Source: Candidatus Omnitrophota bacterium
GTDB lineage: Bacteria; Omnitrophota; Gorgyraeia; JABMRG01; JAFGKX01
DNA length: 64,000 nucleotides
Direction: 5' to 3'
Assembly: GCA_043797125.1 (NCBI GenBank)
Contig: JAZDPX010000033.1
Span: 34,527 to 98,526 of the forward strand
Of this stretch, positions 11,107-45,376 are shown one piece after another. The notes beneath the pieces are model-generated. The model was given only the letters and a program-made list of their open reading frames with translations, had not been told where the DNA came from and ran no database searches. The first letter of the stretch is position 1. Every line of letters begins with the position of its first letter. The position numbers and the translations under genes are program-made.

Positions 11107-11829
11107 CTATTTTTGGCTGTTGTTTTTATCCGTTTTTTTCAGTATAAAAGCAAATTGATAGTCATATCTTAACGGAATAAACATCCATAATATTCTGCAT
11201 ACCATTCTCTTAGCAATGCCGGGAAAATTTGTTTGCTGAAACTTCATGTACCATTTATCGCGATGGATATCAATGATTTCAAAACCGTTTCTGATAAAGG
11301 CGCCCTTCCATTGTTCCAATGATAACAGATTCTCGTTTATATCCTGCTGCTCCGTGCCGTATTTGGCGAAAAGTTTCCAAAAAATAAAATTGGAATTAGG
11401 CACCATTATGCAAAACAGGGCGTTGTTTTTCGCGACCCGCTTCATTTCAAAAAGGCCCTTATCCATATCCAGAAAATGTTCCAAAGACCCCAGGCATGTA
11501 ACATAATCAAAGGTATTATCGCCGAACCTTATGTCTTCCGCCTCGCCGACAGAGATAACCGAATCAGGAGAAATGCCCTTTGCAAGCCTTACGGCCTCTT
11601 CGGAGATATCGATGCCAAAAGTCTCCAGCCCTCTTTTTGATGCCGCGCAAAGCAAAAGCCCTATGCCGCAGGCAACATCTAAAAGCCTTCTGCCTCTTTG
11701 CGACCCCAGATAATCCAAAAATACGGTATATGCTTCGTACGGCCTTTTGTTTCTTACTCCTTCGGAGGCATATTTTTTATTATACCAGCTTCTGACTTCT
11801 TGTCCGGTCGGCGGTTTACGCATTCTCAT
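11107..11829 (-). CDS. Class I SAM-dependent methyltransferase
   Basis: LLDVACGIGLL motif I; 240 aa. Confidence 0.65.
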   Translation of the reverse strand: MRMRKPPTGQEVRSWYNKKYASEGVRNKRPYEAYTVFLDYLGSQRGRRLLDVACGIGLLLCAASKRGLETFGIDISEEAVRLAKGISPDSVISVGEAEDIRFGDNTFDYVTCLGSLEHFLDMDKGLFEMKRVAKNNALFCIMVPNSNFIFWKLFAKYGTEQQDINENLLSLEQWKGAFIRNGFEIIDIHRDKWYMKFQQTNFPGIAKRMVCRILWMFIPLRYDYQFAFILKKTDKNNSQK

Positions 11830-12775
11830 CTCTTATTTTCGATCCGGCCTGGGCCTTAAACTCATTAAAAAACACAAAAGTGAATATTATGCCCAAAAAC
11901 AGCACAACCAGAATGCTTATGGCCCTATCCACTATTGAGGCCAATGCGCCGTTTATGGCGGTAAATCCCATAACAGCGGATGTAATGGTTATAGCTGCCT
12001 CTTTAAAACCTAGATTTGCCGGTGTAATACTCACGAAAACAAAAAGCGAAACTATATTTGCCATAATTAATATTGCGATAAAATCGGGCCGGATACCTAT
12101 GGCCTGGTATGCAAAAAATAACCTTCCGGACAATACAAGCATGGATAAAAGGTTTAGCCCTGATAATATCAGAAGCAGGCTTTTCTGTTTCCTGAAATAA
12201 TTAAGGCCCGAAAATATTTTATTCACAGCTGCGACTTTAAAGCTTTTCCCGGCAAACCATTTCCAGGAAATCATAAAACCGCCGATAAAAATTCCGACGG
12301 AAATAAAAAATAATAATATCTTAAAATTAAAAATACCAGCAAGAAAATACCTAAGACAAATTAGCGCTATGCCGAATACCGCGTTTACCAAAAAAGAAAA
12401 AAAATAAAACCCCATATAGGCGGATAAAAAACTCAAATAGGGAAAATCATATTTGTTTTTCATGTAAAATGCTCTGGCGGTAACTCCTGCCTTTGCAGGC
12501 AATATATAATTACCTATACTGGTGAGGCAGGATAACCCGAACCATTCCTTAAAAGTCAGCCTTACGCCAAAGGCATCTGTAAGTTTTTTTGCGGAAAAGG
12601 CATTGATAATAAGATACAAAAACGTCAAAAATGTTATTGTAATTATATATGACAAAGAAATATGCGAAAGTTTATATAGCTGTTCTTTTCTTGCCATAAT
12701 AAAAGAAACAAATGCCGCAAGTATCGCAAATAATACGAGATAAGAAACCAAATAGGCCTTGTTATTCCGGCGCAT
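11816..12775 (-). CDS. Polytopic membrane protein (flippase-like / LPG-synthase-TM-like, UPF0104)
   Basis: 319 aa with about 8 predicted TM helices and no soluble domain. Confidence 0.4.
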   Translation of the reverse strand: MRRNNKAYLVSYLVLFAILAAFVSFIMARKEQLYKLSHISLSYIITITFLTFLYLIINAFSAKKLTDAFGVRLTFKEWFGLSCLTSIGNYILPAKAGVTARAFYMKNKYDFPYLSFLSAYMGFYFFSFLVNAVFGIALICLRYFLAGIFNFKILLFFISVGIFIGGFMISWKWFAGKSFKVAAVNKIFSGLNYFRKQKSLLLILSGLNLLSMLVLSGRLFFAYQAIGIRPDFIAILIMANIVSLFVFVSITPANLGFKEAAITITSAVMGFTAINGALASIVDRAISILVVLFLGIIFTFVFFNEFKAQAGSKIRDENA

Positions 12776-14333
12776 ATATAGACCGCCTGATTGATATGAC
12801 GCTTATAACCAGAATAACTGCCAAAATTACCATTGCCGATATCACTGCAGATAAAAGCCCCGGGGAAACCGCAGGGACATTCACCCACCATACATCCCAA
12901 ATATCATAATTTTTCATAGACGCGATTACCGGCTTTACAAACCAATAATCTGGGTTATATTCAAAATTCAGAGCCGGATACCCGAATACCCTGCCAACGG
13001 CAGAGGTAAATAAATACCAGCTCCCTCTTATCGGGCTTAATTCGGGTATAAAGTTTATAAAATATTCCTGCAGGCTTAATCCTTCTTTGACAAAAAGCAG
13101 GTATCTGCTAAAACTTATAAACAGGCACGGCAGCTGGACTAAAAACCCCAATGCGGAAAACAGAATCAACATAAGCTTCCTGATAATCGCCCTTGATTGT
13201 TGTATAAATTCTGCTAAAAATATGCACATAAAAGGAATTGTGGGGTATAGATAGCGCGGCCCCCATGAGAATATTGAACCTCTGAGAAATATGTATGCGT
13301 AAAATAAAAAATTTATGATTATAAACGCGAGAATATATAGGGTAAACTTCTTATCTTGTTTTAGCAGGCCCCTTATCCCGAAAAATGCCAGTATCAAGGG
13401 GGCGTTGTAGTAAAAGTACCCTTTCCCCGCGCTCAGCAGATAATAAAACAACCCTTTAAAAAAATTAGGGCCGAATATCAACCCTTTTTGCGTAAATACG
13501 GTTTCTATGCCTGCGCCGGGGTCAACTGCATTGCTTCTTTTCATAAAATAAATAAATAGCGACAGAATAAAACAGCAAGAGACCGGAATAATAACGGCAA
13601 GCCAAAGCTTGACAGCGTGCCTGGCTGATTTAAAATCCGCGCCCTTGTATACTAAATAGAAAAAAATCAGAAAAAGGTATAAAAAGGAATTCATCTTTAT
13701 GAGCAGGCTGTATCCTATCAATGCGCTGCTTAATAACGCGTAACGCGCAAGGGATTCTGATTCATATTTATGCAAAAATAAAAAAGCCGACAGCACAAAA
13801 AGTGTAACCGCAGGCTCTGAAAACCCCGAACGCGTATAGACAAGACTCATTGTGCAGAAGCTATAGCATAAAACCGTTATAACCTTGGTTTTTTTATCAT
13901 AACCAAGCCTTCCTAAAAGCATAAAAAGAATTAACGCTGTTAGCGCGCCGATTGCTGGATTTGCCAGCGAAACACAAAACTGGGTTATGTAATCATGGCC
14001 AATGCCGGAAAACGCCTTGGATATAATATGGCCCAACGCGTAAAGCGGCACAAGCAAAATAGGCATCCCGATGCCATAGGATGAATACCTGTTGCCTGCT
14101 GCGCCGGGTTTTTTACCTGCCTCATATTTCATCTCCTTTATGCCAAAAGGCCTGTCATAAATACTAATATCGCCGTCTAAAACTATGCTTTCGGCTGTAA
14201 GATAATTCTCCAACCCGTCGCCGCCATAATGTCCGTTTGAGAAAAACACAAAAAATGAGAAGAGAAAAATAAAAATATGCATATGCAGTAAAAATTTTCT
14301 TTTTCTTTGCAAAGAAAACAATCCCGGCATCAT
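12762..14333 (-). CDS. GT-C fold membrane glycosyltransferase (ArnT/PMT-like)
   Basis: Large polytopic protein. The ORF-track start is 14498. The start is refined to M56 (ATG 14333..14331), which overlaps the TGA of the upstream CDS as TGATG. Confidence 0.5.
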   Translation of the reverse strand: MMPGLFSLQRKRKFLLHMHIFIFLFSFFVFFSNGHYGGDGLENYLTAESIVLDGDISIYDRPFGIKEMKYEAGKKPGAAGNRYSSYGIGMPILLVPLYALGHIISKAFSGIGHDYITQFCVSLANPAIGALTALILFMLLGRLGYDKKTKVITVLCYSFCTMSLVYTRSGFSEPAVTLFVLSAFLFLHKYESESLARYALLSSALIGYSLLIKMNSFLYLFLIFFYLVYKGADFKSARHAVKLWLAVIIPVSCCFILSLFIYFMKRSNAVDPGAGIETVFTQKGLIFGPNFFKGLFYYLLSAGKGYFYYNAPLILAFFGIRGLLKQDKKFTLYILAFIIINFLFYAYIFLRGSIFSWGPRYLYPTIPFMCIFLAEFIQQSRAIIRKLMLILFSALGFLVQLPCLFISFSRYLLFVKEGLSLQEYFINFIPELSPIRGSWYLFTSAVGRVFGYPALNFEYNPDYWFVKPVIASMKNYDIWDVWWVNVPAVSPGLLSAVISAMVILAVILVISVISIRRSIYAPE

Positions 14334-15019
14334 CAATCCCTTTCTATTTCGTCCTTGTGCGCCTTGTAATAACGCGCAAAAGTAATGTAGGGCTTTATCC
14401 AGCTTAAAGCGCCTGCAATAGCTAAAAACACTAACCCTGCATACAATTTGTTTATTAGCACGAAAAATGTTATAACCCAGTACAACGATATCTCCCATCC
14501 TATATAAATGCCCTTTTTTATCTTTGCTTCAAATGACGGCCCTTTAATAAATTGCTCTTTCGTGTATAATGCAAATGAAGCCAGAAAGCAATGCCCAAGC
14601 GCCGTAAACCCCCATATAAATACTGCGGCGTTATTCTCAACTATATAGGCCCTGTAAGATAGGGATAGGAATATAAAAATAATTTTAATGATGTCAACGA
14701 ATGAATCAAACCACCTGCCGAATTTAGACGAAAGCCCTTTATACCTTGCGTATTGGCCGTCAAGCGTATCAAAAACATATCCTAAGTGCAGAAACAACAA
14801 GCCGAAAATTATGTACGGATAGGCAAAAAACGCAAAAAAACCGCTCCCTATTATTACGATAAACAAAGAGAGTAAGCTTATCTGATTCGCAGTTATGTTT
14901 AAGTGTTTGAAAAATCTATTAAGCAGAAAATTGGAAATAGGCCGGTAGATTAACATGCTAAACAGCTCCTTATGCCCTGCATCCTTTTCTTTATAAGTAA
15001 AATTTTTTGTTTCAGCCAT
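14333..15019 (-). CDS. CDP-alcohol phosphatidyltransferase family protein
   Basis: DTLDGQYARYKGLSSKFGRWFDSFVD matches D-x2-DG-x2-AR-x8-G-x3-D-x3-D. Polytopic. Confidence 0.7.
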   Translation of the reverse strand: MAETKNFTYKEKDAGHKELFSMLIYRPISNFLLNRFFKHLNITANQISLLSLFIVIIGSGFFAFFAYPYIIFGLLFLHLGYVFDTLDGQYARYKGLSSKFGRWFDSFVDIIKIIFIFLSLSYRAYIVENNAAVFIWGFTALGHCFLASFALYTKEQFIKGPSFEAKIKKGIYIGWEISLYWVITFFVLINKLYAGLVFLAIAGALSWIKPYITFARYYKAHKDEIERD

Positions 15020-15047
15020 ATTTATCTCCTACATGTATATTAAGGCA

Positions 15048-15803
15048 TCAATCTTTTCGTAACAGCCATATATATGTCGGGCATAGCCAATACGCGTATT
15101 TCACTATCAATATGGCCAGCCTTTGCTTGAACGACTCAGGCGCAATCATCTCTGTAGCGCAATATTTTTGTGGATCTATAATAATTTTCAATGTATAGTC
15201 TGAAACATTAAATTGAGAGACTAGATTCCTCAGGCCATGTAATGTTAAGTGGTTTTCATAATAGAAGTTCCCTTTTTTTAGTGCCCGCAGATAAAGGTGC
15301 GCTAATGCCTTCGGCATAATTGATAGCAGCGGCAATTTATAGTGCATCTCGATAAATTTTAAACGGTTGGCGGCGGCAAAATAGCAAACACCCTCTGGCT
15401 TAAGCACTCTATATATTTCAGACATAAGTTTAATTGCATCCGGAACATGTTCATACACATGAGCGCAAATAACAATATCAAATGACGCATCTGCAAAGTT
15501 CAGGTTCATCCCGTCGCTAACGCTAAACGCCAAATTATCAGAAGCGCAGTTTTGCCGCGCATGCTTTATTGCCTGCTCGTCTATATCTATTCCTGCAACC
15601 CTGGCAAATTTATCGCTAAGCGCCTTCGATATAATTCCTGCGGAACAGCCTATATCTAAAAGGCTTAATCTTTCAAGGCCTTCGGAATAATAGTCATCGA
15701 GCACAGCAAACATCTTCCTGGCTTTTTGCTGGCGTTTCTGTGTATTATATACTGCGCAGGAATGAGTTTGTGAAAATCCATATTGGTAATTATTGTTTTT
15801 CAT
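15048..15803 (-). CDS. Class I SAM-dependent methyltransferase
   Basis: LLDIGCSAGIIS motif I. The ATG overlaps the upstream TGA as ATGA at 15800..15803. Confidence 0.65.
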   Translation of the reverse strand: MKNNNYQYGFSQTHSCAVYNTQKRQQKARKMFAVLDDYYSEGLERLSLLDIGCSAGIISKALSDKFARVAGIDIDEQAIKHARQNCASDNLAFSVSDGMNLNFADASFDIVICAHVYEHVPDAIKLMSEIYRVLKPEGVCYFAAANRLKFIEMHYKLPLLSIMPKALAHLYLRALKKGNFYYENHLTLHGLRNLVSQFNVSDYTLKIIIDPQKYCATEMIAPESFKQRLAILIVKYAYWLCPTYIWLLRKD

Positions 15804-16738
15804 TTCAAATTCTGCTTCTTCAACCTGTACAATACTTCCTCATTCAGCCTTCTATTAGCAGATATAATATCTCCCAAAAAACCTAACAACATTGTTCCAA
15901 AGCCCATAATAACTAAAATAGCGGCAATAACTAAAGACTGCATATGGCCGCTGCGTCCGACTGTAAAATAAAAATAGAGAAACCTTAGAATAAGTAAAAG
16001 GCCACCGCAGGCAAAGACAGAGCCAACACAAAAAAATGTTTTCAATGGTTCATACATAAGATAAATACGCAATATCGTACTCATCGATCTAACGATATAA
16101 GACGATATGCTCTTTATGAGCCTTGACTCCCTAAGCTTGCTGTTTGTTCTTATATCGACGTGCGATATCGGGATATCCTGCCTTCCTATCTGAATTATGG
16201 ACTCCAATGTGTATGTATACGAAGAAAAGATATTCAGCCTTAGCGCGGCGTCTCTCGAATATGCCCTGAAGCCGCTTGTCGTATCAGGTATATTCGTCCC
16301 TGAGAACTTACGAACCATATAACTTCCGAGCCTCTGCAGCAGTTTTTTCGCAAAAGAAAAGTGTTTTATGGCCTTAATATCCCTGCAGCCAATCACTACC
16401 TCTGCCTTTTTTTCCAACACCGGCCTTACCAGTTTTTCTATGTCCCGGCCGCAGTACTGGTTATCTGCGTCGGTATTAACTATAATATCAGCCCCAAGCT
16501 CCAAAGATTTTTCTATGCCTTTTTTAAACGCCTCTGCCAGGCCCTTCCTTTGAGGCAGGCAAAGGATATGTGTTACCTCGTTCGCCTTAGCTATCGAAGA
16601 GGTTTTATCTATGCTGCCATCATCTATAACCAAAGTTTCAATGCTGTCTATGCCTTCTATTTTTTTAGGCAAATCTTTTAAGGTTATAGGAAGGGTTTGC
16701 GCTTCGTTATAGCAGGGTATCTGGATAATAAGCTTCAT
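15800..16738 (-). CDS. GT2 polyprenyl-phosphate glycosyltransferase (DPM1/ArnC/GtrB-like, C-terminal TM anchor)
   Basis: IQIPCYNEAQTL...LVIDDGSIDKT plus two C-terminal TM helices. Confidence 0.75.
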   Translation of the reverse strand: MKLIIQIPCYNEAQTLPITLKDLPKKIEGIDSIETLVIDDGSIDKTSSIAKANEVTHILCLPQRKGLAEAFKKGIEKSLELGADIIVNTDADNQYCGRDIEKLVRPVLEKKAEVVIGCRDIKAIKHFSFAKKLLQRLGSYMVRKFSGTNIPDTTSGFRAYSRDAALRLNIFSSYTYTLESIIQIGRQDIPISHVDIRTNSKLRESRLIKSISSYIVRSMSTILRIYLMYEPLKTFFCVGSVFACGGLLLILRFLYFYFTVGRSGHMQSLVIAAILVIMGFGTMLLGFLGDIISANRRLNEEVLYRLKKQNLK

Positions 16739-16762
16739 ATCATCTGCTCCTTTTTTGGCGCA

Positions 16763-17503
16763 TCAATCTAACTCTTTTTTAGCGACTATATATGACAACT
16801 TGCATATCCACACAACCGGCATCGCTATGCCGTAAAAAATAACTACCGCAAACACAACACCGCATCGGCAAAATAATTCTGTTATGGTTGCTAATGTTAT
16901 TATATTCATAACGGGCGGAAAAGTGCACAATTTATGCAGCGCAGAAAATAATTTTCGCGCTAAAGAAGGATTTTTTGCCGTGAGCTTATCTGTGTCAAGC
17001 GGCAGATCCCTTTTCCCCGCGAAATATAAAACAGAGTTCCTTAAATCCACCAATAAAATCAAAAGCATAGACGATATCGCGGCTGACGAAGAAAACAAAA
17101 AAACATAACCTATTGCATATTTTCGCCATAAACCGTAACCGATGCCGATAAAAACAAGCGGGTGGATAATATAATGACATATGTTGTCATAGTAAATTCC
17201 TGTAACGGTCGAGGTATTCCTGTAGCGGGCTATCTCACCGTCAACATGGTCTAATATATACCAAAGCTGTAAAAACAGCGCTGCGGTGAACGCGCCTATT
17301 TTTGAACCTTCTGTGAAAAATACGCAGGCTACTATACCTGTAAGCAAAAATATAGATGTCGCGGTATTCGGCGTTAAGTTCATCGCTAAAAATACCCGCG
17401 TTATGTATATAGAAAACCTGCGGGCAACAAATTTACCATACCAGACATCATACTGCTCTCTGGGTTTTTGGCATATGGTTCTAAGCTGGCTGATACTTTC
17501 CAT
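16763..17503 (-). CDS. CDP-alcohol phosphatidyltransferase family protein (second paralog)
   Basis: DHVDGEIARYRNTS...G...D motif. The start is refined to M24 (ATG 17503..17501), which overlaps the TAA of the decarboxylase as TAATG. Confidence 0.7.
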   Translation of the reverse strand: MESISQLRTICQKPREQYDVWYGKFVARRFSIYITRVFLAMNLTPNTATSIFLLTGIVACVFFTEGSKIGAFTAALFLQLWYILDHVDGEIARYRNTSTVTGIYYDNICHYIIHPLVFIGIGYGLWRKYAIGYVFLFSSSAAISSMLLILLVDLRNSVLYFAGKRDLPLDTDKLTAKNPSLARKLFSALHKLCTFPPVMNIITLATITELFCRCGVVFAVVIFYGIAMPVVWICKLSYIVAKKELD

Positions 17504-18645
17504 TATAGCAGCTTCTCCCTGTGCGTTTTTTTGGCGCTTAACCTCATAAACTTTTCTTTTATGGCTTTGCATGTATACTTTTCCGAAATTCTTGGCCTTT
17601 TCTTGTTTTCATTATTAATCAATATATGCACAAAGGCCGCGCCGCGCTTCTTAAGCAAGCCCGGAAAAGCGCTGCGCAACTTGTCCTCTTGCGCAAAACT
17701 ATAAATATTTTTATAACCGGTGGCTTGCGCTATTTTGCAAAAATCGATATTTTGTGAAAGCGCAGGCTGGCCTCCTGTTGACGCGTAAGTACCGTTATCC
17801 AGCACAACATGCATCAGGCTTTTGGATTTCTTATCAGCGACAGACGCCATAGAGCCCAAATGCATCAGGCAGCCTCCGTCTCCGTCTAAAACAATTACCC
17901 TCTTGTCATTATTAACATGCCTTGCTATTCCCAAACCGATTGAATGGGCATGCCCCATAGACCCAAGCATATAAAATGCAGGGTTAAAATCCTCTATGCC
18001 TTTTTTGCTAAGGTTATAAAATGCCTCCCTGCTTATATACCCGTTTGTTGTGACAAAATACGCTTTGTTGTGCCCTGCGCTCATAATAATGTCTATTGCC
18101 TCACTTAGCGGCATTGAATACTTGGATTTTAAAGCAAACTCGCTTTCTTCTTTATCTATTATACCTTTTTTTAAAATTAAGGCTGCCGGTTTATTTGTCT
18201 TCTTTGCCAGCCTGACTATATATTTTACTTCATTTCTGAAATTGTTTTTTGTTAATACAGCGTACGGCACATTCAATGTCTTTAGCATTGTTTTTATCTT
18301 CTTGCCTGTTATATCGTGTTCCGGGGCGTCTTTTGTCCCCGGCTCGCCCCTCCACGAAACTACCAATAAAGCCGGTATATCATATATCTGATTCAAAGAT
18401 GTAAGGCTGTTTATGGTATTACATAACCCTGAATTCTGCATGAGTAAAACAGGCACCTTTTTTGTAATAAGGAAACTGCCGGCTGCCAGACCCATTGCTG
18501 AAGCCTCGCTTACCGGATTTAACACTTCGCAGGCTTTATCCCGCGTAAGCCCGGATATTAACGGCGCCAATATGGAACACGGCACTTCTATATAGGGGCT
18601 GAGGTTATTTTTTTTGAATTCTCTTATTAATTGGTCTGCTTTCAT
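17503..18645 (-). CDS. ppd: Phosphonopyruvate decarboxylase (ThDP-dependent)
   Basis: ThDP-enzyme architecture of about 380 aa. N-terminus MKADQLIREFKKNNLSPYIEVPCSIL is typical of Ppd/sulfopyruvate decarboxylase. It lies immediately downstream of PepM. The ATG 18645..18643 overlaps the PepM TGA (TGATG). Confidence 0.75.
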   Translation of the reverse strand: MKADQLIREFKKNNLSPYIEVPCSILAPLISGLTRDKACEVLNPVSEASAMGLAAGSFLITKKVPVLLMQNSGLCNTINSLTSLNQIYDIPALLVVSWRGEPGTKDAPEHDITGKKIKTMLKTLNVPYAVLTKNNFRNEVKYIVRLAKKTNKPAALILKKGIIDKEESEFALKSKYSMPLSEAIDIIMSAGHNKAYFVTTNGYISREAFYNLSKKGIEDFNPAFYMLGSMGHAHSIGLGIARHVNNDKRVIVLDGDGGCLMHLGSMASVADKKSKSLMHVVLDNGTYASTGGQPALSQNIDFCKIAQATGYKNIYSFAQEDKLRSAFPGLLKKRGAAFVHILINNENKKRPRISEKYTCKAIKEKFMRLSAKKTHREKLL

Positions 18646-20270
18646 CAACTCACCGAAGAGGAAAATATAGCGCACGCCTTTTTATAATCATCGAAGTTGT
18701 GTATTTCCATCCAACCGCTCGTTACCTCATATGCAAGGACCTCATATTTTTTATTGATCAAATGCCCGATTAACTCGGCAAACGAAGCTGTCTGCATAGG
18801 CCTTGACTTCTTATACTCGTCTACCAGCGCCTTCATTCCCTTTTTTGAAAGCATGGCAAGCCCTATAAACTCAAAGTGCGCCTCCTTCTCCGAAATATCA
18901 TTACCGATATTTCGTATAGGATTTTTTCTATTTAAATCCATTGTTCTTAAATTATCAAGGTGCGCTGTTTTAGCGACCACAAGCTCAAGCTGCTTGTTGC
19001 GGATGTGGGTTTTTTTGTATGTACTGTCAACTACCAGTATTATATCATCGTCCTTTTTAAGCAGCCTTTGCAAAAGGTACTGGTCTACAAGTATGTCGGA
19101 ATATAAAATCAAATTCTTGTCGGCAATCTTATCTATGCCTTTCATTATTGAATACATTATGCCCTTACTTCTATAGCTTTTGTTTTCTATGATCCCGGCG
19201 CCTTCAAGCTTTACGTTGGAGCTTTTATATCCCACGACTACGCTTATATCCTGCACCCCTGCGGTATTCAACGTTTCTACGTTCCTTTGCAGCAGCGATT
19301 TTCCGTTTATGTCCAACATCCCTACAGGCCTATCCTCAAGAAGAGGTTTAAGAGAGTTATCCATTTTTGGCCCAGCTGCCGGTATTATGGCTTTAATGCT
19401 TCCTGTATTTGTTTTTAAATACTTTCTTTCATTGCTTTTCATAATATGCATACCTTGCAGCCTGAAGACCTCATCCATTGAAACGATTTTTGAATCAATA
19501 CCTGAAATCCCGTTATCTTTTATATATTTAAGGGCCTGTTTTATGCACTTAATGCCGGCCCTCATTCCGTGGTTGGCATATATTACTACGCTTGCTCCAA
19601 GGTCTCTCATTTGCTTTTCGCTTAAGTCATACATGGTTGGGCATAAAACAAGAGGAGCTCTTTTCTTCCATGCCTTGCAGAAATTGATTATCTCATCCGG
19701 CGTTTTCGATTTTGAATGTATAAATATTCCGTCTGCTCCAGCCTCTATATAAGCCTGCGCCCTTTTTAAAGCCTCGTCCTGGCCCCATCCAGCTATCAGC
19801 GCCTCTACCCTGGCAAATACCATGAAATCATCCGTTGTTTGAGAGTTTTTTGCCGCCATTATCTTGCCGACAAATTCCGCGATAGGCGCAAGTTCCTGCC
19901 TGCCGGGAATAAAACTGTTAACTTTCGGAAATTGTTTATCTTCTATGCAGACAGCGCTAACGCCTGCTGATTCAAATTTTCTTATCATATGCATAACGTT
20001 GTTTGAATTACCAAAACCCGTATCGCAATCCACCATAATAGGTATGGAGGTTGCATTAACCATGCTTTCCGTAGCATACAGCAAATCGCTCATTGTCAAA
20101 ATATTTGCGTCAGGAACAGCATGCGAAGTGGCTATTTCAAAGCCCGACGCCCACACCCCGTCAAAACCTGCCTCCTGGACCAGTTTTGCGGTTAAGCCAT
20201 TGTGCGCCCCTACTATCTTTATAAGCTTTCCTTTGCGAATAAGGTTTTTAAAACTGATTCTTTCTCTCAT
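18645..20270 (-). CDS. pepM: Bifunctional phosphoenolpyruvate phosphomutase / nucleotidyl(cytidylyl)transferase (PepM-PntC/Fom1-like fusion)
   Basis: N-terminal isocitrate-lyase/PEP-mutase fold carries the PepM-specific EDKQFPKVNS (EDKX5NS) motif. C-terminal about 230 aa is an NTP-transferase domain (KAIIPAAGPKMDNSLKPLL...). The start is refined to M12 (ATG 20270). Confidence 0.8.
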   Translation of the reverse strand: MRERISFKNLIRKGKLIKIVGAHNGLTAKLVQEAGFDGVWASGFEIATSHAVPDANILTMSDLLYATESMVNATSIPIMVDCDTGFGNSNNVMHMIRKFESAGVSAVCIEDKQFPKVNSFIPGRQELAPIAEFVGKIMAAKNSQTTDDFMVFARVEALIAGWGQDEALKRAQAYIEAGADGIFIHSKSKTPDEIINFCKAWKKRAPLVLCPTMYDLSEKQMRDLGASVVIYANHGMRAGIKCIKQALKYIKDNGISGIDSKIVSMDEVFRLQGMHIMKSNERKYLKTNTGSIKAIIPAAGPKMDNSLKPLLEDRPVGMLDINGKSLLQRNVETLNTAGVQDISVVVGYKSSNVKLEGAGIIENKSYRSKGIMYSIMKGIDKIADKNLILYSDILVDQYLLQRLLKKDDDIILVVDSTYKKTHIRNKQLELVVAKTAHLDNLRTMDLNRKNPIRNIGNDISEKEAHFEFIGLAMLSKKGMKALVDEYKKSRPMQTASFAELIGHLINKKYEVLAYEVTSGWMEIHNFDDYKKACAIFSSSVS

Positions 20271-20272
20271 TT

Positions 20273-21493
20273 TTACCTCTTTACGCCGGCATTTCTCCAG
20301 CACGCCGGGTCTCCGGCAAAAAATGCGTCCGGATTAAGCCTGGATGGGTCATAGTTGCCTTTTTCGTCAAATGCCGAATCATCGTAGGCCCTGGTGCGGC
20401 AGCCGTAGCAGCGGCCTTCCTTGCTAAGCTGGCAATTCGCGGTTGAACATTTTGAGTTCTCATGCAGCTGAGAATATATATTCCTGAATCTCTTTACCTT
20501 CTCCGACATAACAATATCGGTAAACAAAGTGTCCCTTATGTTTCCCAATGCCCAGAAATCCGGCGCCTCCGAGCAGGGCAGCACAACGCCGTCCGCCCTT
20601 ACATGGACGCCTCCTAAATGCCTTGAGCATGCCTTATTCTCAACCCACGGGCTTTGCGCCTTCCAATGAATGTCAAATTCCTTTCCATCTATATCAGCTA
20701 CCTTTTCAAACAACCTCATAATACTCTCTGAATTCAATGTTCCGCCTGATAATTTTCCGCAAAGCATTACAGATACATTTTTTTTAGCTGTGCCGTGAAC
20801 ATGGACAGGTATGATAAAAGGCCTGAAGTTATGCCTTCTAGACCATCGGAAAACATCACACACATCGTCATAGTTTAAAACAGTAACTACGGTATTAGTT
20901 GAAAGAGGCGGCATATCAGGCCTTCCATACCCTGCCTTTATAAGGTGCGCGAACCCCTGCATCATCTTTTTTGAGCCGCCTTTAATGCCGAGCAACTTAT
21001 CCTGTATGTCTTCATTTAACGAATCTAGTTTGCAGCATAATGAAATACCGTCTTCGGCAAGCCTTTTTGCCTTTTCTTCGTTAATAACAGCTACATCTGT
21101 AAAGCTTACCAGATCAAGAGGCAGGCCTTTCTCTTCAAAAAGAGCCCTTGCATATTCTACCACATGGAAGAAGGCTTCGCCACCTTTACCCTTGAAATCA
21201 GGCGGATTCCAGACTAAAGGCTCCCCGCCCTGCATGTTTATTATCCTTACCCCTAACCCAGCTGCCTGGCTGATAATATCCTTTGCCTCATGCATGGTCA
21301 ATTGATTTGTTCTCTCGGGAGAACCCTCGGCATAACAATAAATACACCGGAAATTGCACTTTTGTGTAACCATGATATCGACCGACAAAAGCACAGCGCC
21401 CTGCGATTTCATACGCTCTATAATATCCCTGCCTAATCCCGCCATTCCCGGATAAAGAGTTATGTTTTCCTTATTTGCTGGTTTTCTCTCCAT
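20273..21493 (-). CDS. Radical SAM enzyme with Cys-rich C-terminal (SPASM/twitch-like) domain
   Basis: CNFRCIYC (Cx3Cx2C), GGEPL, and C-terminal CSTANC...CYGC cysteines. The stop lies 2 nt before the PepM start. Confidence 0.7.
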   Translation of the reverse strand: MERKPANKENITLYPGMAGLGRDIIERMKSQGAVLLSVDIMVTQKCNFRCIYCYAEGSPERTNQLTMHEAKDIISQAAGLGVRIINMQGGEPLVWNPPDFKGKGGEAFFHVVEYARALFEEKGLPLDLVSFTDVAVINEEKAKRLAEDGISLCCKLDSLNEDIQDKLLGIKGGSKKMMQGFAHLIKAGYGRPDMPPLSTNTVVTVLNYDDVCDVFRWSRRHNFRPFIIPVHVHGTAKKNVSVMLCGKLSGGTLNSESIMRLFEKVADIDGKEFDIHWKAQSPWVENKACSRHLGGVHVRADGVVLPCSEAPDFWALGNIRDTLFTDIVMSEKVKRFRNIYSQLHENSKCSTANCQLSKEGRCYGCRTRAYDDSAFDEKGNYDPSRLNPDAFFAGDPACWRNAGVKR

Positions 21494-21511
21494 TTAAGCC
21501 CTCGCGTATTG

Positions 21512-22387
21512 TTATCCGAACGCAGCTATCAGATATATTCCTATAAATATAATAACCGCGCCGGCAAATCTTACCTTAGCGTACTTTTCTTTTAAAAACA
21601 AAATTCCGTACAAAGAACCAAAAACCACGCTTATCTGCCTTAATGCGATAACATATGCAACCTTTGACATGCGAAACGCATAAAGGATTAATATATAAGA
21701 TAGAAATTCCAGCACCGCGGCTAACGCGATGCTGAATTTATCTTTTTTCGTGATATAAAAATAGTTCCTGCGCCTTTCCTTCATAAATAAAAGATACCCT
21801 AAAAACAAAAAACCCGACAAGGCAAAAAAAAGGTAAAAAAACAAAATAGGGTGCATTAACAGAACTCCCTTTTTATCAACGACAGAATAACATGCCGAAG
21901 AAAAGGCGGTTAACCCCGCGAAAAATACAACCTTTTTATTTATATGCCTAAAAGGATCAAGGATTCCTGAAAAGGATATCTTTTTTTGGTTTATAAGATA
22001 TGCCCCCAACATGACAACTATAATTCCCAATATTGCTATCTTTGACGGGACCTCACCTAATAATATAAATGCCATAAGAAGGACAAATACGGGAGAAGAC
22101 CTTATAATCGGATATGACAAAGACATGTCCGCGCCTTCGTAGGTCTTGCACAGGAATATCTGGTAAAAAAAATGAGTGCATGCGGAAACTATTACAAGCA
22201 CCCAGCCTGCGATGCTGACATCTTTTAGCGGATACAAAAACAGAATAAAACAAAACGCCAGCGTATAAAAAAGGTGTATGTTCAGATAAAATATCACCTT
22301 GTCCTCGCTTTTTTTCAGCAGCATATTCCACAGAGGATGGATAACGCTTGATATAATTACCAGCAAGAAACTAATTTCTGTTATCAT
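21512..22387 (-). CDS. EamA/DMT-family transporter (LicB-like)
   Basis: 291 aa with 10 TM helices in two 5-TM repeats. Confidence 0.6.
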   Translation of the reverse strand: MITEISFLLVIISSVIHPLWNMLLKKSEDKVIFYLNIHLFYTLAFCFILFLYPLKDVSIAGWVLVIVSACTHFFYQIFLCKTYEGADMSLSYPIIRSSPVFVLLMAFILLGEVPSKIAILGIIVVMLGAYLINQKKISFSGILDPFRHINKKVVFFAGLTAFSSACYSVVDKKGVLLMHPILFFYLFFALSGFLFLGYLLFMKERRRNYFYITKKDKFSIALAAVLEFLSYILILYAFRMSKVAYVIALRQISVVFGSLYGILFLKEKYAKVRFAGAVIIFIGIYLIAAFG

Positions 22388-23147
22388 GACAACCTATTTT
22401 TTCAATCTCGCTTAATGCCTTTTTATAATCCTCAACAGTGTCTATTTCCCGCCAGCCGCCTTTTACTGTTACGCAGTGAACCGCAATTCCTGAATCCGCC
22501 AGATCCTGAACCATGTCTGTTAAATACGCCTTTTCAAATACCGGAGCCCTCTGAAATGGCTTGCCGTCATAAATAGGCTTTATCTTATTAAAATGGTTTC
22601 TAAAAATAGCCGCTCCCTTTTTTGTGCATTTTATCATGCCGACAAATTCACCGTGAACGGCGTTTTTATCACCAAGGGCCTTGCCGATTTTAAGTACCTT
22701 TTTATCGGAATCCATTATAACATTTTCCGCTTCATCAATCGGGTGGTCTTTTCTGCCTTTATAATAGGCGCGCCAGTCGGTGTCAACCAGAATGGCTATA
22801 TCTTTTTTGCAATTTAACAGCCTTTTCGCGATCTTGGCGTCAAACAATATATCCGAATACGAAGCTATAAACTCATCGTCCATCTCCCGCTGGGCGCAAA
22901 AAAGTGAATGCAGTATATCGTTATGAAGATATCTTTCATTTACATAATATTTGAGCCCCGGATAATCTATCTTTTCTTTTTTATAACCCACTATGACTGA
23001 TATGTCTTTCACGCCGGCGCTCCTGAAAGCCTCAAACTGGGATTGAAGGAGAGTTTTCTTATTAAATTCCAGCAGGCATTTAGGCAGGTCATCGGTTAGC
23101 TCATTCATCCTCTTGCCTCTTCCCGCTGCTATAATAATCGCTTTCAT
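22371..23147 (-). CDS. LicC-like nucleotidyltransferase (phosphocholine/phosphonate cytidylyltransferase family)
   Basis: MKAIIIAAGRGKRMNELTDDLPKCLL N-terminal NTP-transferase signature. It is a paralog of the C-terminal domain of the PepM fusion. Confidence 0.7.
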   Translation of the reverse strand: MKAIIIAAGRGKRMNELTDDLPKCLLEFNKKTLLQSQFEAFRSAGVKDISVIVGYKKEKIDYPGLKYYVNERYLHNDILHSLFCAQREMDDEFIASYSDILFDAKIAKRLLNCKKDIAILVDTDWRAYYKGRKDHPIDEAENVIMDSDKKVLKIGKALGDKNAVHGEFVGMIKCTKKGAAIFRNHFNKIKPIYDGKPFQRAPVFEKAYLTDMVQDLADSGIAVHCVTVKGGWREIDTVEDYKKALSEIEKIGCHDNRN

Positions 23148-24637
23148 GCTTTTGTCCGTTCGCTTGCCTCCTGCTTCATGCTGCTAAGCAAAAGAGGTAT
23201 CAGTTTTCTTTTTTTGTTTATATACACAAGCACCGGGATAGATAAAAACGTTATTGACGCGCATCCTATTATATTGCCAAGGTTTGTTTCCGCCGCGGCA
23301 ATTCTTAACGTGGCCTGCAAGCCTGCAACGCACGCAGCAATGTAAGCCGCGGGAATCATCATTCTTAAAATAAATAATACGGCGTTCTTGGGCGTTTCAA
23401 AATGAATCAACGTATGCGCAAGAGAGGCGATAAAAAGAAAAAAAGACGATATTGCGGTGGCGACTGCCACGCCCTCTATGCCGTGGCCTTTGCGTATCAG
23501 GATGTAATTAAGGATAATATTAAGCGCTATCGTTATAAGAACAACTTTTATTATCCACCTCGTTTTATTAACTGCGACAAGGAAAGCGCGAGTCTGGGGG
23601 CATAACGCCCTGAAAAATACATCCAGTAAAATTATCTGCATGGCGATGATGCCGGGAGTAAACTTTGGCAATACAAACCGTACGAAAACCGGTATCGCGA
23701 AATACGCCATCCCAAGCGCGACAGGCAGTATGCACGAATTTACTTCTGTGGGAACCACTATATATTTTTTCGCGTCCTGGACGTTTTCCCGGCTTCCGTA
23801 CGCCTCCAGCATGCGCGGCTTTACCACCGAGGCTATGGCCGATATCTCATCCATGCTTGTTCTCGCCATAATGCCCAAACTGTAATACCCGGCAAAGGTT
23901 ACACCTATCATTTTCGCTATCATAATCCTGTCCGTTGACCAGAGTATCGTATCAACAATACCGATGCCCATCAATGGCAGGCCAAGCTTCACTAACTCCT
24001 TTGTCCTGTTTAAAGAGAACAGAAAACGCGCTTTATATTTTGTATTGCTGTATATATAAATAATATTAACCAGCGAAAGCGTTATAGTCGCCGCATAGAG
24101 GCCGTTAAGCTTAAACATCCTTACCGCCGTAAAAACCAGAAATATGTTAGCAGCCACGACCACAAACATGGATCTGCTAAGAAGAGAGAAATTTTTGAAC
24201 ACCTTCAACAGGAGCATATAAAACATCTCGACCCGCTGAAATATCACATAAACGGAAAGGGCAACCAGGCCTATGATAAACTCGCGCGGGACGCTGTTTC
24301 TTAACAAGAATACCGAAACAAGAACTGGCAGGCTGATTGCAAGAGAAGTTAAAAACATAAAGGTAAAAGTCGTGTTTTTAATTTCATCAACAGCTTTCGG
24401 GTCTTTTTTACCGACCAAAAAAGGTATTTTATACATTGCCGCCCTGCTAACGCCCAAAAGCGTGTATCCGCAATATTCCAGCGCTACTTTAAACAGGCTC
24501 CATATGCCCGTAAGGTACGGGCCCAGAAACCTGCGCGTGACTATCGCTATCAGCACTTCGACCGCGTTAGAAATATATGTGGCAATAGTTATGCTTGTAA
24601 CATCTCTGAAAACCTGTCTTTTAGCCGAATCGCTCAT
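23144..24637 (-). CDS. Polysaccharide biosynthesis protein / Wzx-like oligosaccharide flippase (MOP superfamily)
   Basis: 497 aa with 12-14 TM helices, typical of O-antigen flippases. Confidence 0.65.
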   Translation of the reverse strand: MSDSAKRQVFRDVTSITIATYISNAVEVLIAIVTRRFLGPYLTGIWSLFKVALEYCGYTLLGVSRAAMYKIPFLVGKKDPKAVDEIKNTTFTFMFLTSLAISLPVLVSVFLLRNSVPREFIIGLVALSVYVIFQRVEMFYMLLLKVFKNFSLLSRSMFVVVAANIFLVFTAVRMFKLNGLYAATITLSLVNIIYIYSNTKYKARFLFSLNRTKELVKLGLPLMGIGIVDTILWSTDRIMIAKMIGVTFAGYYSLGIMARTSMDEISAIASVVKPRMLEAYGSRENVQDAKKYIVVPTEVNSCILPVALGMAYFAIPVFVRFVLPKFTPGIIAMQIILLDVFFRALCPQTRAFLVAVNKTRWIIKVVLITIALNIILNYILIRKGHGIEGVAVATAISSFFLFIASLAHTLIHFETPKNAVLFILRMMIPAAYIAACVAGLQATLRIAAAETNLGNIIGCASITFLSIPVLVYINKKRKLIPLLLSSMKQEASERTKA

Positions 24638-25460: not shown

Positions 25461-25472
25461 GCGTACGCCCCT

Positions 25473-26099: not shown

Positions 26100-26116
26100 A
26101 ATACGGCCTGTTCACG

Positions 26117-27337: not shown

Positions 27338-27351
27338 AAAACCCCCTCCTG

Positions 27352-29157: not shown

Positions 29158-29161
29158 AGCT

Positions 29162-43038: not shown

Positions 43039-43041
43039 GTT

Positions 43042-45374: not shown

Positions 45375-45376
45375 GC

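What the first reader, a model, noticed from the sequence alone, without database searches (positions are those of the whole stretch)
14333..23147. Translationally coupled phosphonate module (PepM-cytidylyltransferase fusion, Ppd, radical SAM) lacking the canonical third enzyme
What is present: the PepM domain carries the phosphonate-specific EDKX5NS motif (EDKQFPKVNS). It is fused to a C-terminal cytidylyltransferase domain, as in Fom1 or PntC-type fusions. A ThDP decarboxylase (Ppd) follows directly. What is absent: the usual next enzyme is 2-AEP transaminase, the Fe-alcohol dehydrogenase that makes 2-HEP, or phosphonoacetaldehyde dehydrogenase. No ORF of 300 aa or more in the window fits any of these. 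What sits in its place: a SPASM-type radical SAM enzyme is encoded immediately upstream, ending 2 nt before the PepM start. Coupling: downstream, the genes are chained by 1- or 4-nt stop/start overlaps in the order PepM, Ppd (TGATG), CDP-alcohol phosphatidyltransferase (TAATG), GT2, methyltransferase (ATGA), second CDP-alcohol phosphatidyltransferase, GT-C (TGATG). Interpretation: this suggests a new phosphonate headgroup, or a new route to one, that is activated as a CMP conjugate and transferred onto lipid or glycan.
Basis: partly seen in the sequence, partly recalled or inferred. Interest (0 to 1): 0.85.

Follow-up and report, generated by a model that had tools for sequence, protein, structure and literature searches.

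The report
Phosphonate surface-decoration operon with dedicated radical SAM
A bacterial operon makes a carbon-phosphorus (phosphonate) group for the cell surface, but instead of the usual third pathway enzyme it carries an uncharacterised iron-sulfur radical enzyme that always sits beside phosphonate genes, which points to an undescribed step or product.

Summary
On the minus strand, 23147-12762 encodes a LicC-like nucleotidyltransferase (NTP2), an EamA transporter, a SPASM radical SAM enzyme (rSAM), PEP mutase (EDKQFPKVNS) fused to a C-terminal PF12804 nucleotidyltransferase, phosphonopyruvate decarboxylase (Ppd), two CDP-alcohol phosphotransferases, a GT2, a methyltransferase and a GT-C. The stop/start junctions are as reported.

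All 55 coding-strand ORFs of at least 150 aa were scanned. None is a class-V aminotransferase or an Fe-ADH. The single aldehyde dehydrogenase lies 20 kb away, best matches ketoglutarate-semialdehyde dehydrogenase, and sits in a sugar-acid block.

The PepM-nucleotidyltransferase fusion, the second nucleotidyltransferase and the CDP-alcohol transferases are all known features. The new element is the rSAM:
- It belongs to a tight family. One full-length representative scores 768 bits among 1.84 billion cluster representatives; the next full-length relative scores 285.
- In 27 loci from at least four phyla it lies next to PepM and/or Ppd, across three different PepM architectures.
- AEPT is present in one of those loci and Fe-ADH in none.
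- No locus with adequate flanks lacks PepM.
- A close PepM fusion relative without the rSAM has an Fe-ADH directly after Ppd.

The rSAM is therefore probably an oxygen-independent branch-point or tailoring enzyme acting on phosphonoacetaldehyde or its CMP conjugate. Its chemistry is unknown. I rate this a new variant of a known kind, of moderately high interest.

The parts
23144..24637 (-). Wzx-type polysaccharide flippase. Its stop overlaps the NTP2 start (ATGA). It marks the upstream boundary of the coupled chain.
   Evidence: Polysacc_synt_3 / Polysacc_synt; junction
22371..23147 (-). NTP2: a stand-alone LicC/PntC-like nucleotidyltransferase, probably a cytidylyltransferase. Part of the conserved core.
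   Evidence: NTP_transf_3 at 54 bits. PDB LicC 1jyk E 6e-17, and Tde1415 PntC 6pd1 E 4e-6. Homologs lie next to the rSAM in most related loci.
21512..22387 (-). EamA/DMT membrane transporter. Part of the conserved core in the PepM~PF12804 type of locus.
   Evidence: EamA at 90 bits. TIGR03340 phn_DUF6 at 146 bits, below its cut-off of 288. Conserved at 52-70% identity immediately upstream of the rSAM in L002, L003, L009, L010, L088, L089, L091, L093, L095-L103 and L105.
20273..21493 (-). SPASM-type radical SAM enzyme. It belongs to an uncharacterised family dedicated to pepM-ppd and is the candidate branch-point or tailoring enzyme.
   Evidence: Radical_SAM plus SPASM. CX3CX2C (C46/C50/C53) and 7 invariant C-terminal Cys. 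AF2 model pLDDT 86.5; the best fold match is anSME, TM 0.62-0.68 at 19% identity. No NCBIfam model comes near its cut-off. The family is one 50%-identity cluster. Neighbourhoods.
18645..20270 (-). PEP mutase (residues ~1-300) fused to a C-terminal PF12804 nucleotidyltransferase (PntC-type).
   Evidence: PEP_mutase at 206 bits and NTP_transf_3 at 40 bits. TIGR02320 at 313.1 bits, just under its 319.55 cut-off. EDKQFPKVNS motif. PDB 5unc PEP phosphomutase E 2e-95, and LicC hit on the C-terminal domain.
17503..18645 (-). Phosphonopyruvate decarboxylase (Ppd). Its start overlaps the PepM stop (TGATG).
   Evidence: TIGR03297 at 325.7 bits, above the 312.5 cut-off; junction
16763..17503 (-). CDP-alcohol phosphotransferase-family membrane protein 1, with a variant motif DxxDGxxAR-x8-GxxxDxxxH. 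Its start overlaps the Ppd stop (TAATG).
   Evidence: CDP-OH_P_transf at 29.2 bits, above the 22-bit gathering score. Homologs carry the same variant motif in L003, L089 and L100.
15800..16738 (-). GT2 of the polyprenyl-phosphate glycosyltransferase type (AglJ/ArnC/PpgS-like).
   Evidence: Glycos_transf_2 at 79 bits. AglJ, ArnC and PpgS models hit weakly, all below cut-off.
15048..15803 (-). Class I SAM-dependent methyltransferase, with a 4-nt ATGA overlap with the GT2.
   Evidence: Methyltransf_11 at 93 bits; junction
14333..15019 (-). CDP-alcohol phosphotransferase-family membrane protein 2, with the canonical DxxDGxxAR..GxxxDxxxD motif.
   Evidence: CDP-OH_P_transf at 49 bits; sequence
12762..14333 (-). 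GT-C fold glycosyltransferase (PMT_2/ArnT-like). Its probable start at M56 overlaps the PT2 stop (TGATG).
   Evidence: PMT_2 at 34 bits; junction and Met positions
11816..12775 (-). LPG_synthase_TM (flippase-like) membrane protein overlapping the GT-C stop. It is a likely accessory of the GT2/GT-C pair.
   Evidence: PF03706 at 64 bits; junction

Best explanation
This is a phosphonyl-tailoring (Pnt-type) cell-surface decoration operon of an anaerobic Candidatus Omnitrophota bacterium.

Proposed steps, each marked by its basis:
1. PEP is converted to phosphonopyruvate by the PepM domain, and then to phosphonoacetaldehyde (PnAA) by Ppd. Both assignments rest on family membership.
2. The canonical next enzyme (AEP transaminase, Fe-ADH or PhnY) is absent. 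A dedicated SPASM radical SAM enzyme takes its place and processes the PnAA-derived two-carbon phosphonate. This is an inference from conserved gene neighbourhood.
3. The substrate is most likely a CMP conjugate made by the fused PntC domain or by the adjacent NTP2. This is an inference by analogy with Fom1/Fom3.
4. The chemistry is probably oxygen-independent H-atom abstraction followed by electron removal through the two auxiliary Fe-S clusters. That would be an oxidative functionalisation or C-C/C-H rearrangement of the kind aerobes perform with non-haem-iron oxygenases. The actual product is unknown. This step is speculative.
5. The CMP-phosphonate then donates its phosphonyl group to a membrane-bound acceptor hydroxyl through the CDP-alcohol phosphotransferase-family proteins, releasing CMP.
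6. The GT2 (polyprenyl-phosphate glycosyltransferase type), the flippase-like proteins and the GT-C deliver the decorated unit to a surface glycan or lipid. The methyltransferase adds a methyl group. These steps are inferred from domain families.
For: Domain assignments and motifs.

Absence of AEPT and Fe-ADH from all 55 coding ORFs. The only Aldedh is KGSADH-like and 20 kb away.

The rSAM family is discrete:
- About 80 clusters are 54-77% identical, then identity drops to 35% or less.
- In 1.84 billion 50%-identity representatives there is one full-length hit at 768 bits. The next full-length one scores 285.

Neighbourhood evidence:
- Counting the window, 27 loci carry PepM and/or Ppd beside the rSAM.
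- They come from Omnitrophota, 'Deltaproteobacteria', Chloroflexi/Dehalococcoidia and Phycisphaerae MAGs.
- PepM appears in three architectures: PepM~PF12804, PF01467~PepM, and stand-alone PepM in L094.
- rSAM identity can stay high while PepM identity is low. In L094 the values are 71% and 39%.
- A minimal locus, L002, is just EamA-rSAM-PepM~NTase-Ppd among housekeeping genes.
- AEPT occurs only in L001/L112, and Fe-ADH in none.
- The PepM~NTase relative L092, which lacks the rSAM, has an Fe-ADH directly after Ppd.
- An NTase gene is almost always next to the rSAM.

Precedent: Fom3 needs the CMP moiety of HEP-CMP (PMC9088020).

Fold: SPASM architecture, nearest anSME, with all seven SPASM cysteines invariant.

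Literature: ppm clusters with Ppd but none of the seven known branch-point enzymes are recognised as unexplored (PMC8942020).
Against: - There is no biochemical evidence, and no sequence feature identifies the rSAM's substrate or product.
- L001 has both the rSAM and an Aminotran_5. A 32%-identical phage-borne relative sits beside an Fe-ADH. The rSAM could therefore act after an aminotransferase or reductase step supplied from elsewhere.
- Only 64 kb of the 174-kb contig, and none of the rest of the genome, could be inspected. Both attempts to fetch flanks failed.
- An oxidative role for PnAA (to phosphonoacetate) would not need a radical enzyme, because NAD-dependent aldehyde dehydrogenases work anaerobically.
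- The fold similarity to anSME is only at superfamily level (19% identity).
Confidence: 0.55

Rival explanations
1. Ordinary AEP (or HEP) pathway. PnAA is transaminated or reduced by an enzyme encoded elsewhere in the genome. The rSAM is a late, oxygen-independent tailoring enzyme acting on AEP/HEP or their CMP conjugates. For example, it could be the anaerobic counterpart of the alpha-ketoglutarate/Fe(II) oxygenase of the Burkholderiales CDP-OH clusters, which is predicted to make 1-hydroxy-AEP.
For: Apart from AEPT and the oxygenase, the architecture matches the published seven-gene Burkholderiales_CDP-OH core of Ppm~PntC, Ppd, a second PntC and phospholipid-type transferases (PMC8942020). 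L001 combines the rSAM with an Aminotran_5. The distant phage-like relative sits next to an Fe-ADH. Characterised PntCs prefer AEP (PMC6697681).
Against: Of the 27 loci with PepM and/or Ppd beside the rSAM, one has an AEPT and none has an Fe-ADH. This includes seven loci with precomputed Pfam calls over +/-10 kb. Canonical clusters normally keep AEPT or the ADH next to Ppd, as L092 does.
Confidence: 0.22
2. The rSAM does not touch the phosphonate. It modifies another pathway component instead. This could be a sugar or nucleotide acceptor (as BtrN, DesII and BlsE do), or a protein residue of one of the transferases (anSME-like maturation).
For: The best structural matches are the peptide/protein-modifying SPASM enzymes anSME, CteB, SkfB and SuiB, followed by the nucleotide- or sugar-acting viperin, DesII, MoaA and BlsE. 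The window is a large glycan-biosynthesis locus.
Against: The minimal locus L002 has no sugar genes, no sulfatase-type target and no precursor peptide. The only partners conserved across the three PepM architectures are PepM, Ppd and an NTase. No sulfatase-family ORF exists in the window.
Confidence: 0.15
3. The adjacency of the rSAM and the phosphonate genes is inherited by chance within one lineage and has no functional meaning.
For: None beyond the lack of biochemical data.
Against: The linkage persists across at least four phyla, three PepM domain architectures and several gene orders. The rSAM and PepM identities are uncoupled. In the window there is a 2-nt spacer between the rSAM stop and the PepM start.
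Confidence: 0.02

Closest known systems
Phosphonyl-tailoring (Pnt) pathways, in particular the 'Burkholderiales_CDP-OH' gene-cluster group (Rice et al. 2019, PMC6697681; Li & Horsman 2022, PMC8942020)
   Same: Ppm carrying EDKX5NS and fused to a PF12804 cytidylyltransferase, Ppd, a second PntC-like NTase, and CDP-alcohol-type phospholipid transferases. The logic is the same: CMP activation followed by transfer to the cell surface.
   Different: There is no AEPT and no alpha-ketoglutarate/Fe(II) oxygenase. A SPASM rSAM and an EamA transporter are present instead. The host is an anaerobic candidate phylum. The transferases are embedded in a GT2/GT-C glycan-modification module.
Streptomyces fosfomycin early steps: Fom1 (CyTase-PepM), Fom2 (Ppd), FomC (Fe-ADH), Fom3 (B12 radical SAM acting on HEP-CMP)
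   Same: A PepM fused to a cytidylyltransferase, a Ppd, and a radical SAM enzyme in the same pathway. It sets the precedent that a radical SAM enzyme needs the CMP handle (PMC9088020).
   Different: The Fom1 CyTase is N-terminal PF01467, whereas here it is C-terminal PF12804. FomC is absent. The rSAM here has no B12-binding domain and carries a SPASM domain. The three B12 rSAMs in the window lie 9-18 kb away. The output is a surface decoration, not an antibiotic.
SPASM radical SAM dehydrogenases/maturases (anSME, and by chemistry BtrN)
   Same: A partial TIM-barrel rSAM core with CX3CX2C plus a C-terminal seven-Cys SPASM domain. The best fold match is anSME, TM 0.62-0.68.
   Different: Identity is only 18-19%, and no anSME or other NCBIfam model comes near its cut-off. 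There is no sulfatase or peptide substrate gene. The family has its own invariant motifs (LCCK, PVHVHG, ENKACSRH) and an exclusive pepM-ppd context.
Unclassified 'post-Ppd other' ppm clusters, for example Campylobacter GCF 385 with ppm-ppd flanked by radical SAM and adenylylsulfate kinase genes (PMC8942020)
   Same: A Ppm-Ppd core without any of the seven known branch-point enzymes, and a radical SAM neighbour. An APS-kinase-like gene recurs in seven related loci here: L088, L091, L094, L099, L102, L103 and L114.
   Different: Whether the Campylobacter rSAM belongs to this family could not be tested. No Campylobacter protein appeared among the named hits. The window itself has no APS kinase.
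IPCT/DIPPS-type cytidylyltransferase plus CDP-alcohol phosphotransferase pairs
   Same: An NTase and a CDP-OH_P_transf membrane protein working in tandem. Both kinds of domain here give weak hits to the bifunctional IPCT/DIPPS model.
   Different: Scores are far below the cut-off (22-45 bits against 580). The domains are on separate proteins. The donor is presumably a CMP-phosphonate, not CDP-inositol.

Membership tests
PEP mutase (Ppm/PepM) | Isocitrate-lyase/PEP-mutase fold with the Ppm-specific EDKX5NS motif | tested here: met
   PF13714 at 206 bits. EDKQFPKVNS at residue 110. PDB 5unc E 2e-95.
PEP mutase (Ppm/PepM) | Score above the NCBIfam equivalog cut-off (TIGR02320) | tested here: inconclusive
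   313.1 bits against a cut-off of 319.55. The rival PPH model TIGR02321 scores 293.6 against 374.4.
PEP mutase (Ppm/PepM) | Coupled to an enzyme that pulls the unfavourable equilibrium (Ppd adjacent) | tested here: met
   Ppd starts 1 nt inside the PepM stop.
Phosphonopyruvate decarboxylase (Ppd) | ThDP enzyme scoring above the TIGR03297 equivalog cut-off | tested here: met
   325.7 bits against 312.5. TPP_enzyme_N and TPP_enzyme_C are both present.
PntC (phosphonyl-tailoring cytidylyltransferase, LicC-like PF12804) | PF12804 domain fused to, or within a few genes of, Ppm | tested here: met
   The fused domain scores 40.4 bits against a 27-bit gathering score. NTP2 scores 54 bits and hits LicC 1jyk at E 6e-17.
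PntC (phosphonyl-tailoring cytidylyltransferase, LicC-like PF12804) | CTP-dependent activation of a phosphonate (AEP for the characterised members) | not testable with these tools
   Mapping the amine-binding Glu104/Glu196 of Tde-PntC onto these sequences was inconclusive.
Fom1-type fusion | N-terminal PF01467 CyTase domain preceding PepM | tested here: not met
   The window protein has a C-terminal PF12804 domain. Relatives L001, L005 and L090 do have PF01467~PepM together with the same rSAM family.
Canonical AEP / HEP / PnAc branch | AEPT (class V aminotransferase), Fe-ADH (PhpC/FomC type) or PhnY encoded with Ppm-Ppd | tested here: not met
   None in the window. The Aldedh at 43042-44532 is KGSADH-like. 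One of the 27 related loci has an AEPT and none has an Fe-ADH.
Radical SAM / SPASM subfamily | CX3CX2C cluster motif plus the seven-Cys SPASM motif for two auxiliary clusters | tested here: met
   C46/C50/C53. C289-x12-G-x4-C307, C349, C354, C362, C365 and C398 are invariant in 44 members.
Anaerobic sulfatase-maturating enzyme (anSME) | Family-level sequence match and a co-occurring sulfatase substrate | tested here: not met
   There is only fold-level similarity at 18-19% identity. The PDB sequence hit has E 5.6e-5 over the SPASM part alone. No sulfatase ORF is in the window or in L002.
AhbD / NirJ / MoaA (best NCBIfam hits) | Score above the equivalog cut-off | tested here: not met
   72, 64 and 63 bits against cut-offs of 500, 500 and 284.
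CDP-alcohol phosphatidyltransferase family | PF01066 match and the motif DxxDGxxAR...GxxxDxxxD | tested here: met
   PT2 (14333-15019) scores 49 bits and has the canonical motif.
CDP-alcohol phosphatidyltransferase family | The same motif in PT1 (16763-17503) | tested here: inconclusive
   PT1 scores 29.2 bits, above the gathering score, but the last Asp is replaced by His. The replacement is conserved in the L003 and L089 homologs.

The most novel reading that the evidence does not exclude
The SPASM radical SAM family defines an eighth early branch point of phosphonate biosynthesis, one that does not need oxygen. It would act directly on phosphonoacetaldehyde or CMP-phosphonoacetaldehyde and yield a phosphonate head group not yet described on any cell surface.

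The most far-reaching sub-case is a radical C-C cleavage or C1 functionalisation that gives anaerobes their own route to one-carbon or hydroxylated phosphonates (methyl-, hydroxymethyl- or 1-hydroxy-phosphonates). Such products are known so far only from O2-dependent enzymes (MPnS, HEPD, PhnY*). I give that sub-case alone at most 0.1.
Probability: 0.4. Interest if true: 0.85.

Novelty: new variant of a known kind. Interest (0 to 1): 0.62.

Why it matters
Phosphonates are a sizeable pool of organic phosphorus and a source of antibiotics. All known pathways diverge at seven enzymes that act on phosphonopyruvate or phosphonoacetaldehyde. Clusters with none of these seven are regarded as the place to look for new chemistry (PMC8942020).

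This work identifies a compact, widely distributed candidate for a new branch point, restricted to anaerobes. It has a minimal four-gene cassette (L002) that could be expressed directly.

If the rSAM acts on the phosphonate, it would:
- add a new reaction type (radical, oxygen-independent) to early phosphonate biosynthesis;
- probably reveal a new surface phosphonate in uncultured anaerobic phyla;
- bear on where phosphonates in anoxic sediments and groundwater come from.

Tried and rejected
- tRNA scan of the window found none.
- Four literature searches for a SPASM or radical SAM enzyme in phosphonate biosynthesis found nothing. The only near match is a one-line mention of Campylobacter ppm-ppd flanked by a radical SAM gene (PMC8942020). 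No supplementary files were held that would let me check that family.
- NCBIfam scans of the rSAM and of seven distant relatives gave only generic AhbD/NirJ/PqqE/MoaA similarity far below cut-offs, so no functional transfer is possible.
- A PDB sequence search gave weak viperin-like, SkfB, anSME and MoaA hits. The viperin and MoaA hits made me consider a nucleotide-bound substrate, but the similarity is generic to the rSAM core.
- I considered the Aldedh at 43042-44532 as a PhnY substitute and rejected it. It is KGSADH/GucD-like and sits in a dehydratase/SDR/ketopantoate-reductase block.
- I considered an anSME-like role and rejected it, because no sulfatase target exists.
- I looked for a second conserved unknown partner in the PF01467~PepM type of locus and found none.
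- tblastn of the phage-like relative against annotated phage genomes gave nothing useful.
- Two attempts to fetch sequence beyond the window start by exact-protein look-up failed.
- Mapping the Tde-PntC amine-binding residues onto the two NTases was inconclusive.
- I first favoured a methylphosphonate-forming beta-scission of the PnAA hydrate radical. I downgraded it because the bond beta to a C2 radical is C1-P, not C1-C2. Only an acyl-radical decarbonylation would give that outcome.

Full report
**What is in the sequence**

The whole 64-kb window is one co-directional, minus-strand glycan-biosynthesis locus with no tRNA genes. The exact rSAM and PepM proteins are on record from a Candidatus Omnitrophota MAG, on a contig of 174,146 bp.

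Between 23147 and 12762 the genes run as follows:

| Coordinates | Gene | Evidence |
|---|---|---|
| 22371-23147 | Stand-alone LicC-like nucleotidyltransferase (NTP2) | |
| 21512-22387 | EamA/DMT transporter | |
| 20273-21493 | Radical SAM enzyme with a SPASM domain | |
| 18645-20270 | PepM fused to a C-terminal PF12804 nucleotidyltransferase | |
| 17503-18645 | Ppd, TIGR03297 at 325.7 bits against a 312.5 cut-off | |
| 16763-17503 | CDP-alcohol phosphotransferase-family protein 1 | |
| 15800-16738 | GT2 of the polyprenyl-phosphate type | |
| 15048-15803 | Class I methyltransferase | |
| 14333-15019 | CDP-alcohol phosphotransferase-family protein 2 | |
| 12762-14333 | PMT_2 GT-C glycosyltransferase | |

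The Ppm-specific motif reads EDKQFPKVNS. The coupling also extends upstream, through an ATGA overlap between a Wzx-type flippase and NTP2.

**The claimed absence**

I scanned all 55 minus-strand ORFs of at least 150 aa against Pfam and read the partial ORF at the window start, which is a methyltransferase. There is no class-V aminotransferase and no Fe-ADH.

Its best NCBIfam matches are alpha-ketoglutaric-semialdehyde and 2,5-dioxovalerate dehydrogenases. It sits between a sugar-acid dehydratase, a ketopantoate-reductase-like protein and an SDR, 20 kb upstream. It is not a good PhnY candidate. The absence therefore holds within the window. I could not read the rest of the contig.

**What is already known**

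About 60% of Ppm enzymes are fused to a nucleotidyltransferase. PF12804 is the most common partner (33%), and N-terminal PF01467, as in Fom1, is the second (PMC6697681).

A large 'Burkholderiales_CDP-OH' group has Ppm~PntC, Ppd, AEPT, an alpha-ketoglutarate/Fe(II) oxygenase, a second PntC and two phospholipid-type genes (PMC8942020).

The fusion, the second NTase and the CDP-alcohol transferases here are therefore ordinary. The fusion is PntC-type, not Fom1-type. More than 3,800 homologs of the fusion protein exist.

**What is not ordinary: the radical SAM enzyme**

*The protein itself.*
- It has CX3CX2C (C46/C50/C53) and seven invariant C-terminal cysteines in the SPASM pattern.
- The AlphaFold model is confident (pLDDT 86.5, pTM 0.88).
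- Its best structural neighbours are anSME (TM 0.62-0.68, 18-19% identity), CteB, SkfB and SuiB, followed by viperin, DesII, MoaA and BlsE.
- No curated family model comes near its cut-off. The best is AhbD at 72 bits against 500.

*How discrete the family is.*
- Among 5.8 billion proteins, the homologs form a block of about 80 clusters at 54-77% identity, then identity drops to 35% or less.
- A profile search of 1.84 billion 50%-identity representatives returns one full-length member at 768 bits and two fragments. The next full-length protein scores 285 bits.

*Neighbourhoods.* I fetched loci through exact-protein look-ups, one scan of species-representative genomes and one scan of metagenome contigs. 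I then screened them by tblastn with the window's proteins, an AEPT and two Fe-ADHs taken from pepM contexts.
- Counting the window, 27 loci with an rSAM at least 55% identical have PepM and/or Ppd beside it.
- The other 14 loci in that identity range (L010, L095, L096, L098, L099, L102, L106, L115, L117-L122) are too short, or are cut exactly on the side where PepM-Ppd lies in their closest relatives. For example, compare L103 with L099 and L102.
- No locus has adequate flanks and lacks PepM.

*Breadth of the association.*
- It spans MAGs labelled Omnitrophota, Deltaproteobacteria, Chloroflexi/Dehalococcoidia and Phycisphaerae.
- It covers three PepM architectures: PepM~PF12804; PF01467~PepM in L001, L005 and L090; and a stand-alone PepM in L094.
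- It covers several gene orders.
- rSAM identity can be high while PepM identity is low. In L094 the values are 71% and 39%. This argues for functional rather than merely inherited linkage.
- The minimal case, L002/L008, is EamA-rSAM-PepM~NTase-Ppd surrounded by housekeeping genes.

*Controls.*
- The 28 bacterial genome loci with 28-33% identical relatives (L011-L038) have no PepM or Ppd.
- The exception is a pair of phage-like marine contigs, L006 and L007. There a 32%-identical rSAM precedes Fe-ADH, PepM, a split Ppd, CTP_transf_3 and NeuB.

**Is it the 'third enzyme'?**

An AEPT is present in only one of the family loci (L001/L112), and an Fe-ADH in none. Seven of these loci have precomputed Pfam calls over +/-10 kb, and they show no Aminotran_5 and no Fe-ADH.

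A PepM~PF12804 relative of similar identity that lacks the rSAM (L092) has an Fe-ADH immediately after Ppd.

A nucleotidyltransferase gene, either NTP2 or a small PF01467 protein, is almost always next to the rSAM. Fom3, the one radical SAM enzyme characterised in early phosphonate biosynthesis, requires the CMP moiety of HEP-CMP (PMC9088020).

The most economical reading is that the rSAM processes the PnAA-derived phosphonate, probably as a CMP conjugate. It would occupy the pathway position that AEPT, the ADH or oxygenases hold elsewhere.

What it makes cannot be deduced. The two complete auxiliary clusters and the anSME-like fold suggest H-abstraction followed by electron removal. Simple oxidation of PnAA to phosphonoacetate would not justify a radical enzyme. 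A replacement for O2-dependent tailoring chemistry in these anaerobes is plausible but untested.

**Downstream logic (inferred from families only)**

CMP-phosphonate would be the donor for the two CDP-alcohol phosphotransferase-family membrane proteins.
- The first has a conserved variant motif in which the last Asp is replaced by His. Its homologs recur in L003, L089 and L100 together with a methyltransferase, a GT2 and a GT-C.
- The second has the canonical motif.

The GT2 resembles polyprenyl-phosphate glycosyltransferases (AglJ/ArnC/PpgS, all below cut-off). Together with the GT-C and the flippase-like proteins, it forms the usual three-part system for adding a lipid-linked unit to a surface polymer.

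Related loci often add NUDIX and cytidylate-kinase genes, which fits CMP turnover. Others carry an APS-kinase-like gene. This recalls the Campylobacter ppm-ppd clusters flanked by radical SAM and adenylylsulfate kinase genes noted in PMC8942020.

**Rivals**

1. An ordinary AEP/HEP pathway whose third enzyme is unlinked, with the rSAM acting as a late tailoring enzyme. L001 and the phage-like loci keep this alive. I give it about 0.2.
2. The rSAM modifies a sugar, nucleotide or protein partner. The minimal L002 cassette and the lack of any target gene argue against it. I give it about 0.15.
3. Chance adjacency is effectively excluded.

**Verdict**

The phosphonate core is conventional, and its nucleotidyl and CDP-alcohol logic has been published. 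The tightly coupled SPASM rSAM, however, is a real, conserved and, as far as the searchable literature shows, undescribed partner of Ppm-Ppd in clusters that lack every known branch-point enzyme.

It is a new variant of a known kind of system and a well-defined experimental lead.

Noticed in passing
window 16763-17503; L003 16121-17002; L089 16083-16961: The first CDP-alcohol phosphotransferase-family protein carries DxxDGxxAR-x8-GxxxDxxxH. The last Asp of the family signature, the proposed catalytic base, is replaced by His, and the change is conserved in homologs from other rSAM-pepM loci. The second copy (14333-15019) is canonical.
   Followed up: partly
L088 13973-14569; L091 12869-14653; L094 13750-15318; also L099, L102, L103, L114: An APS-kinase-like gene recurs beside the rSAM/PepM/Ppd core. 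In L091 it is fused to a sulfotransferase domain. In L094 it is fused to a second Radical_SAM+SPASM enzyme. It could be a 3'-kinase for a CMP conjugate or part of genuine sulfation. It is absent from the window.
   Followed up: partly
L006 10001-16528 and L007 2145-8672: Two phage-like marine contigs carry RecA, Toprim, a UvrD helicase, endonuclease VII and peptide deformylase. They also carry a 32%-identical SPASM rSAM followed by Fe-ADH, PepM, a split Ppd, CTP_transf_3 and NeuB, which looks like a virus-borne phosphonate module.
   Followed up: partly
window 27352-31204 and L091 14676-18112: A LIC12162-family transferase is paired with a B12-binding radical SAM enzyme in the window (KedN5-like C-methyltransferase, 219 bits, below its cut-off). 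The same pair lies directly after the phosphonate core in the Phycisphaerae locus L091.
   Followed up: no
window 29162-31204, 31919-33202, 36903-38297: The same locus holds three cobalamin-binding radical SAM enzymes. Related rSAM-pepM loci also carry them (L001, L003, L005, L088, L091). None is adjacent to PepM in the window.
   Followed up: no
window 38269-46923: This block encodes a transketolase-like protein, a CMP-sugar synthetase (CTP_transf_3), a ketopantoate-reductase-like protein, an enolase-superfamily sugar-acid dehydratase, a KGSADH-like aldehyde dehydrogenase, an SDR, a HAD phosphatase and NeuB. It looks like a route to an unusual acidic or nonulosonic sugar.
   Followed up: partly
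window 24648-27400: A WbuX-type N-acetyl sugar amidotransferase (TIGR03573, 383 bits) sits with HisH- and HisF-like subunits. This is the known trio for acetamidino sugar formation.
   Followed up: no
window 47867-50311 and 50330-51376: An 814-aa ORF has only a weak spermine-synthase-like/methyltransferase match, and a 348-aa ORF has no Pfam match at all. Both lie next to an MBOAT acyltransferase (51333-52763).
   Followed up: no
window 52803-61542: Three further PMT_2 GT-C proteins and a YfhO-like protein, together with two GT2 genes, point to several parallel lipid-linked surface-modification systems in this organism.
   Followed up: no
L092 8676-13831: A PepM~PF12804 relative without the rSAM has a sulfatase/phosphodiesterase-family gene immediately upstream of PepM and an Fe-ADH immediately after Ppd. 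This is a canonical HEP-type cluster and serves as a useful comparator.
   Followed up: partly
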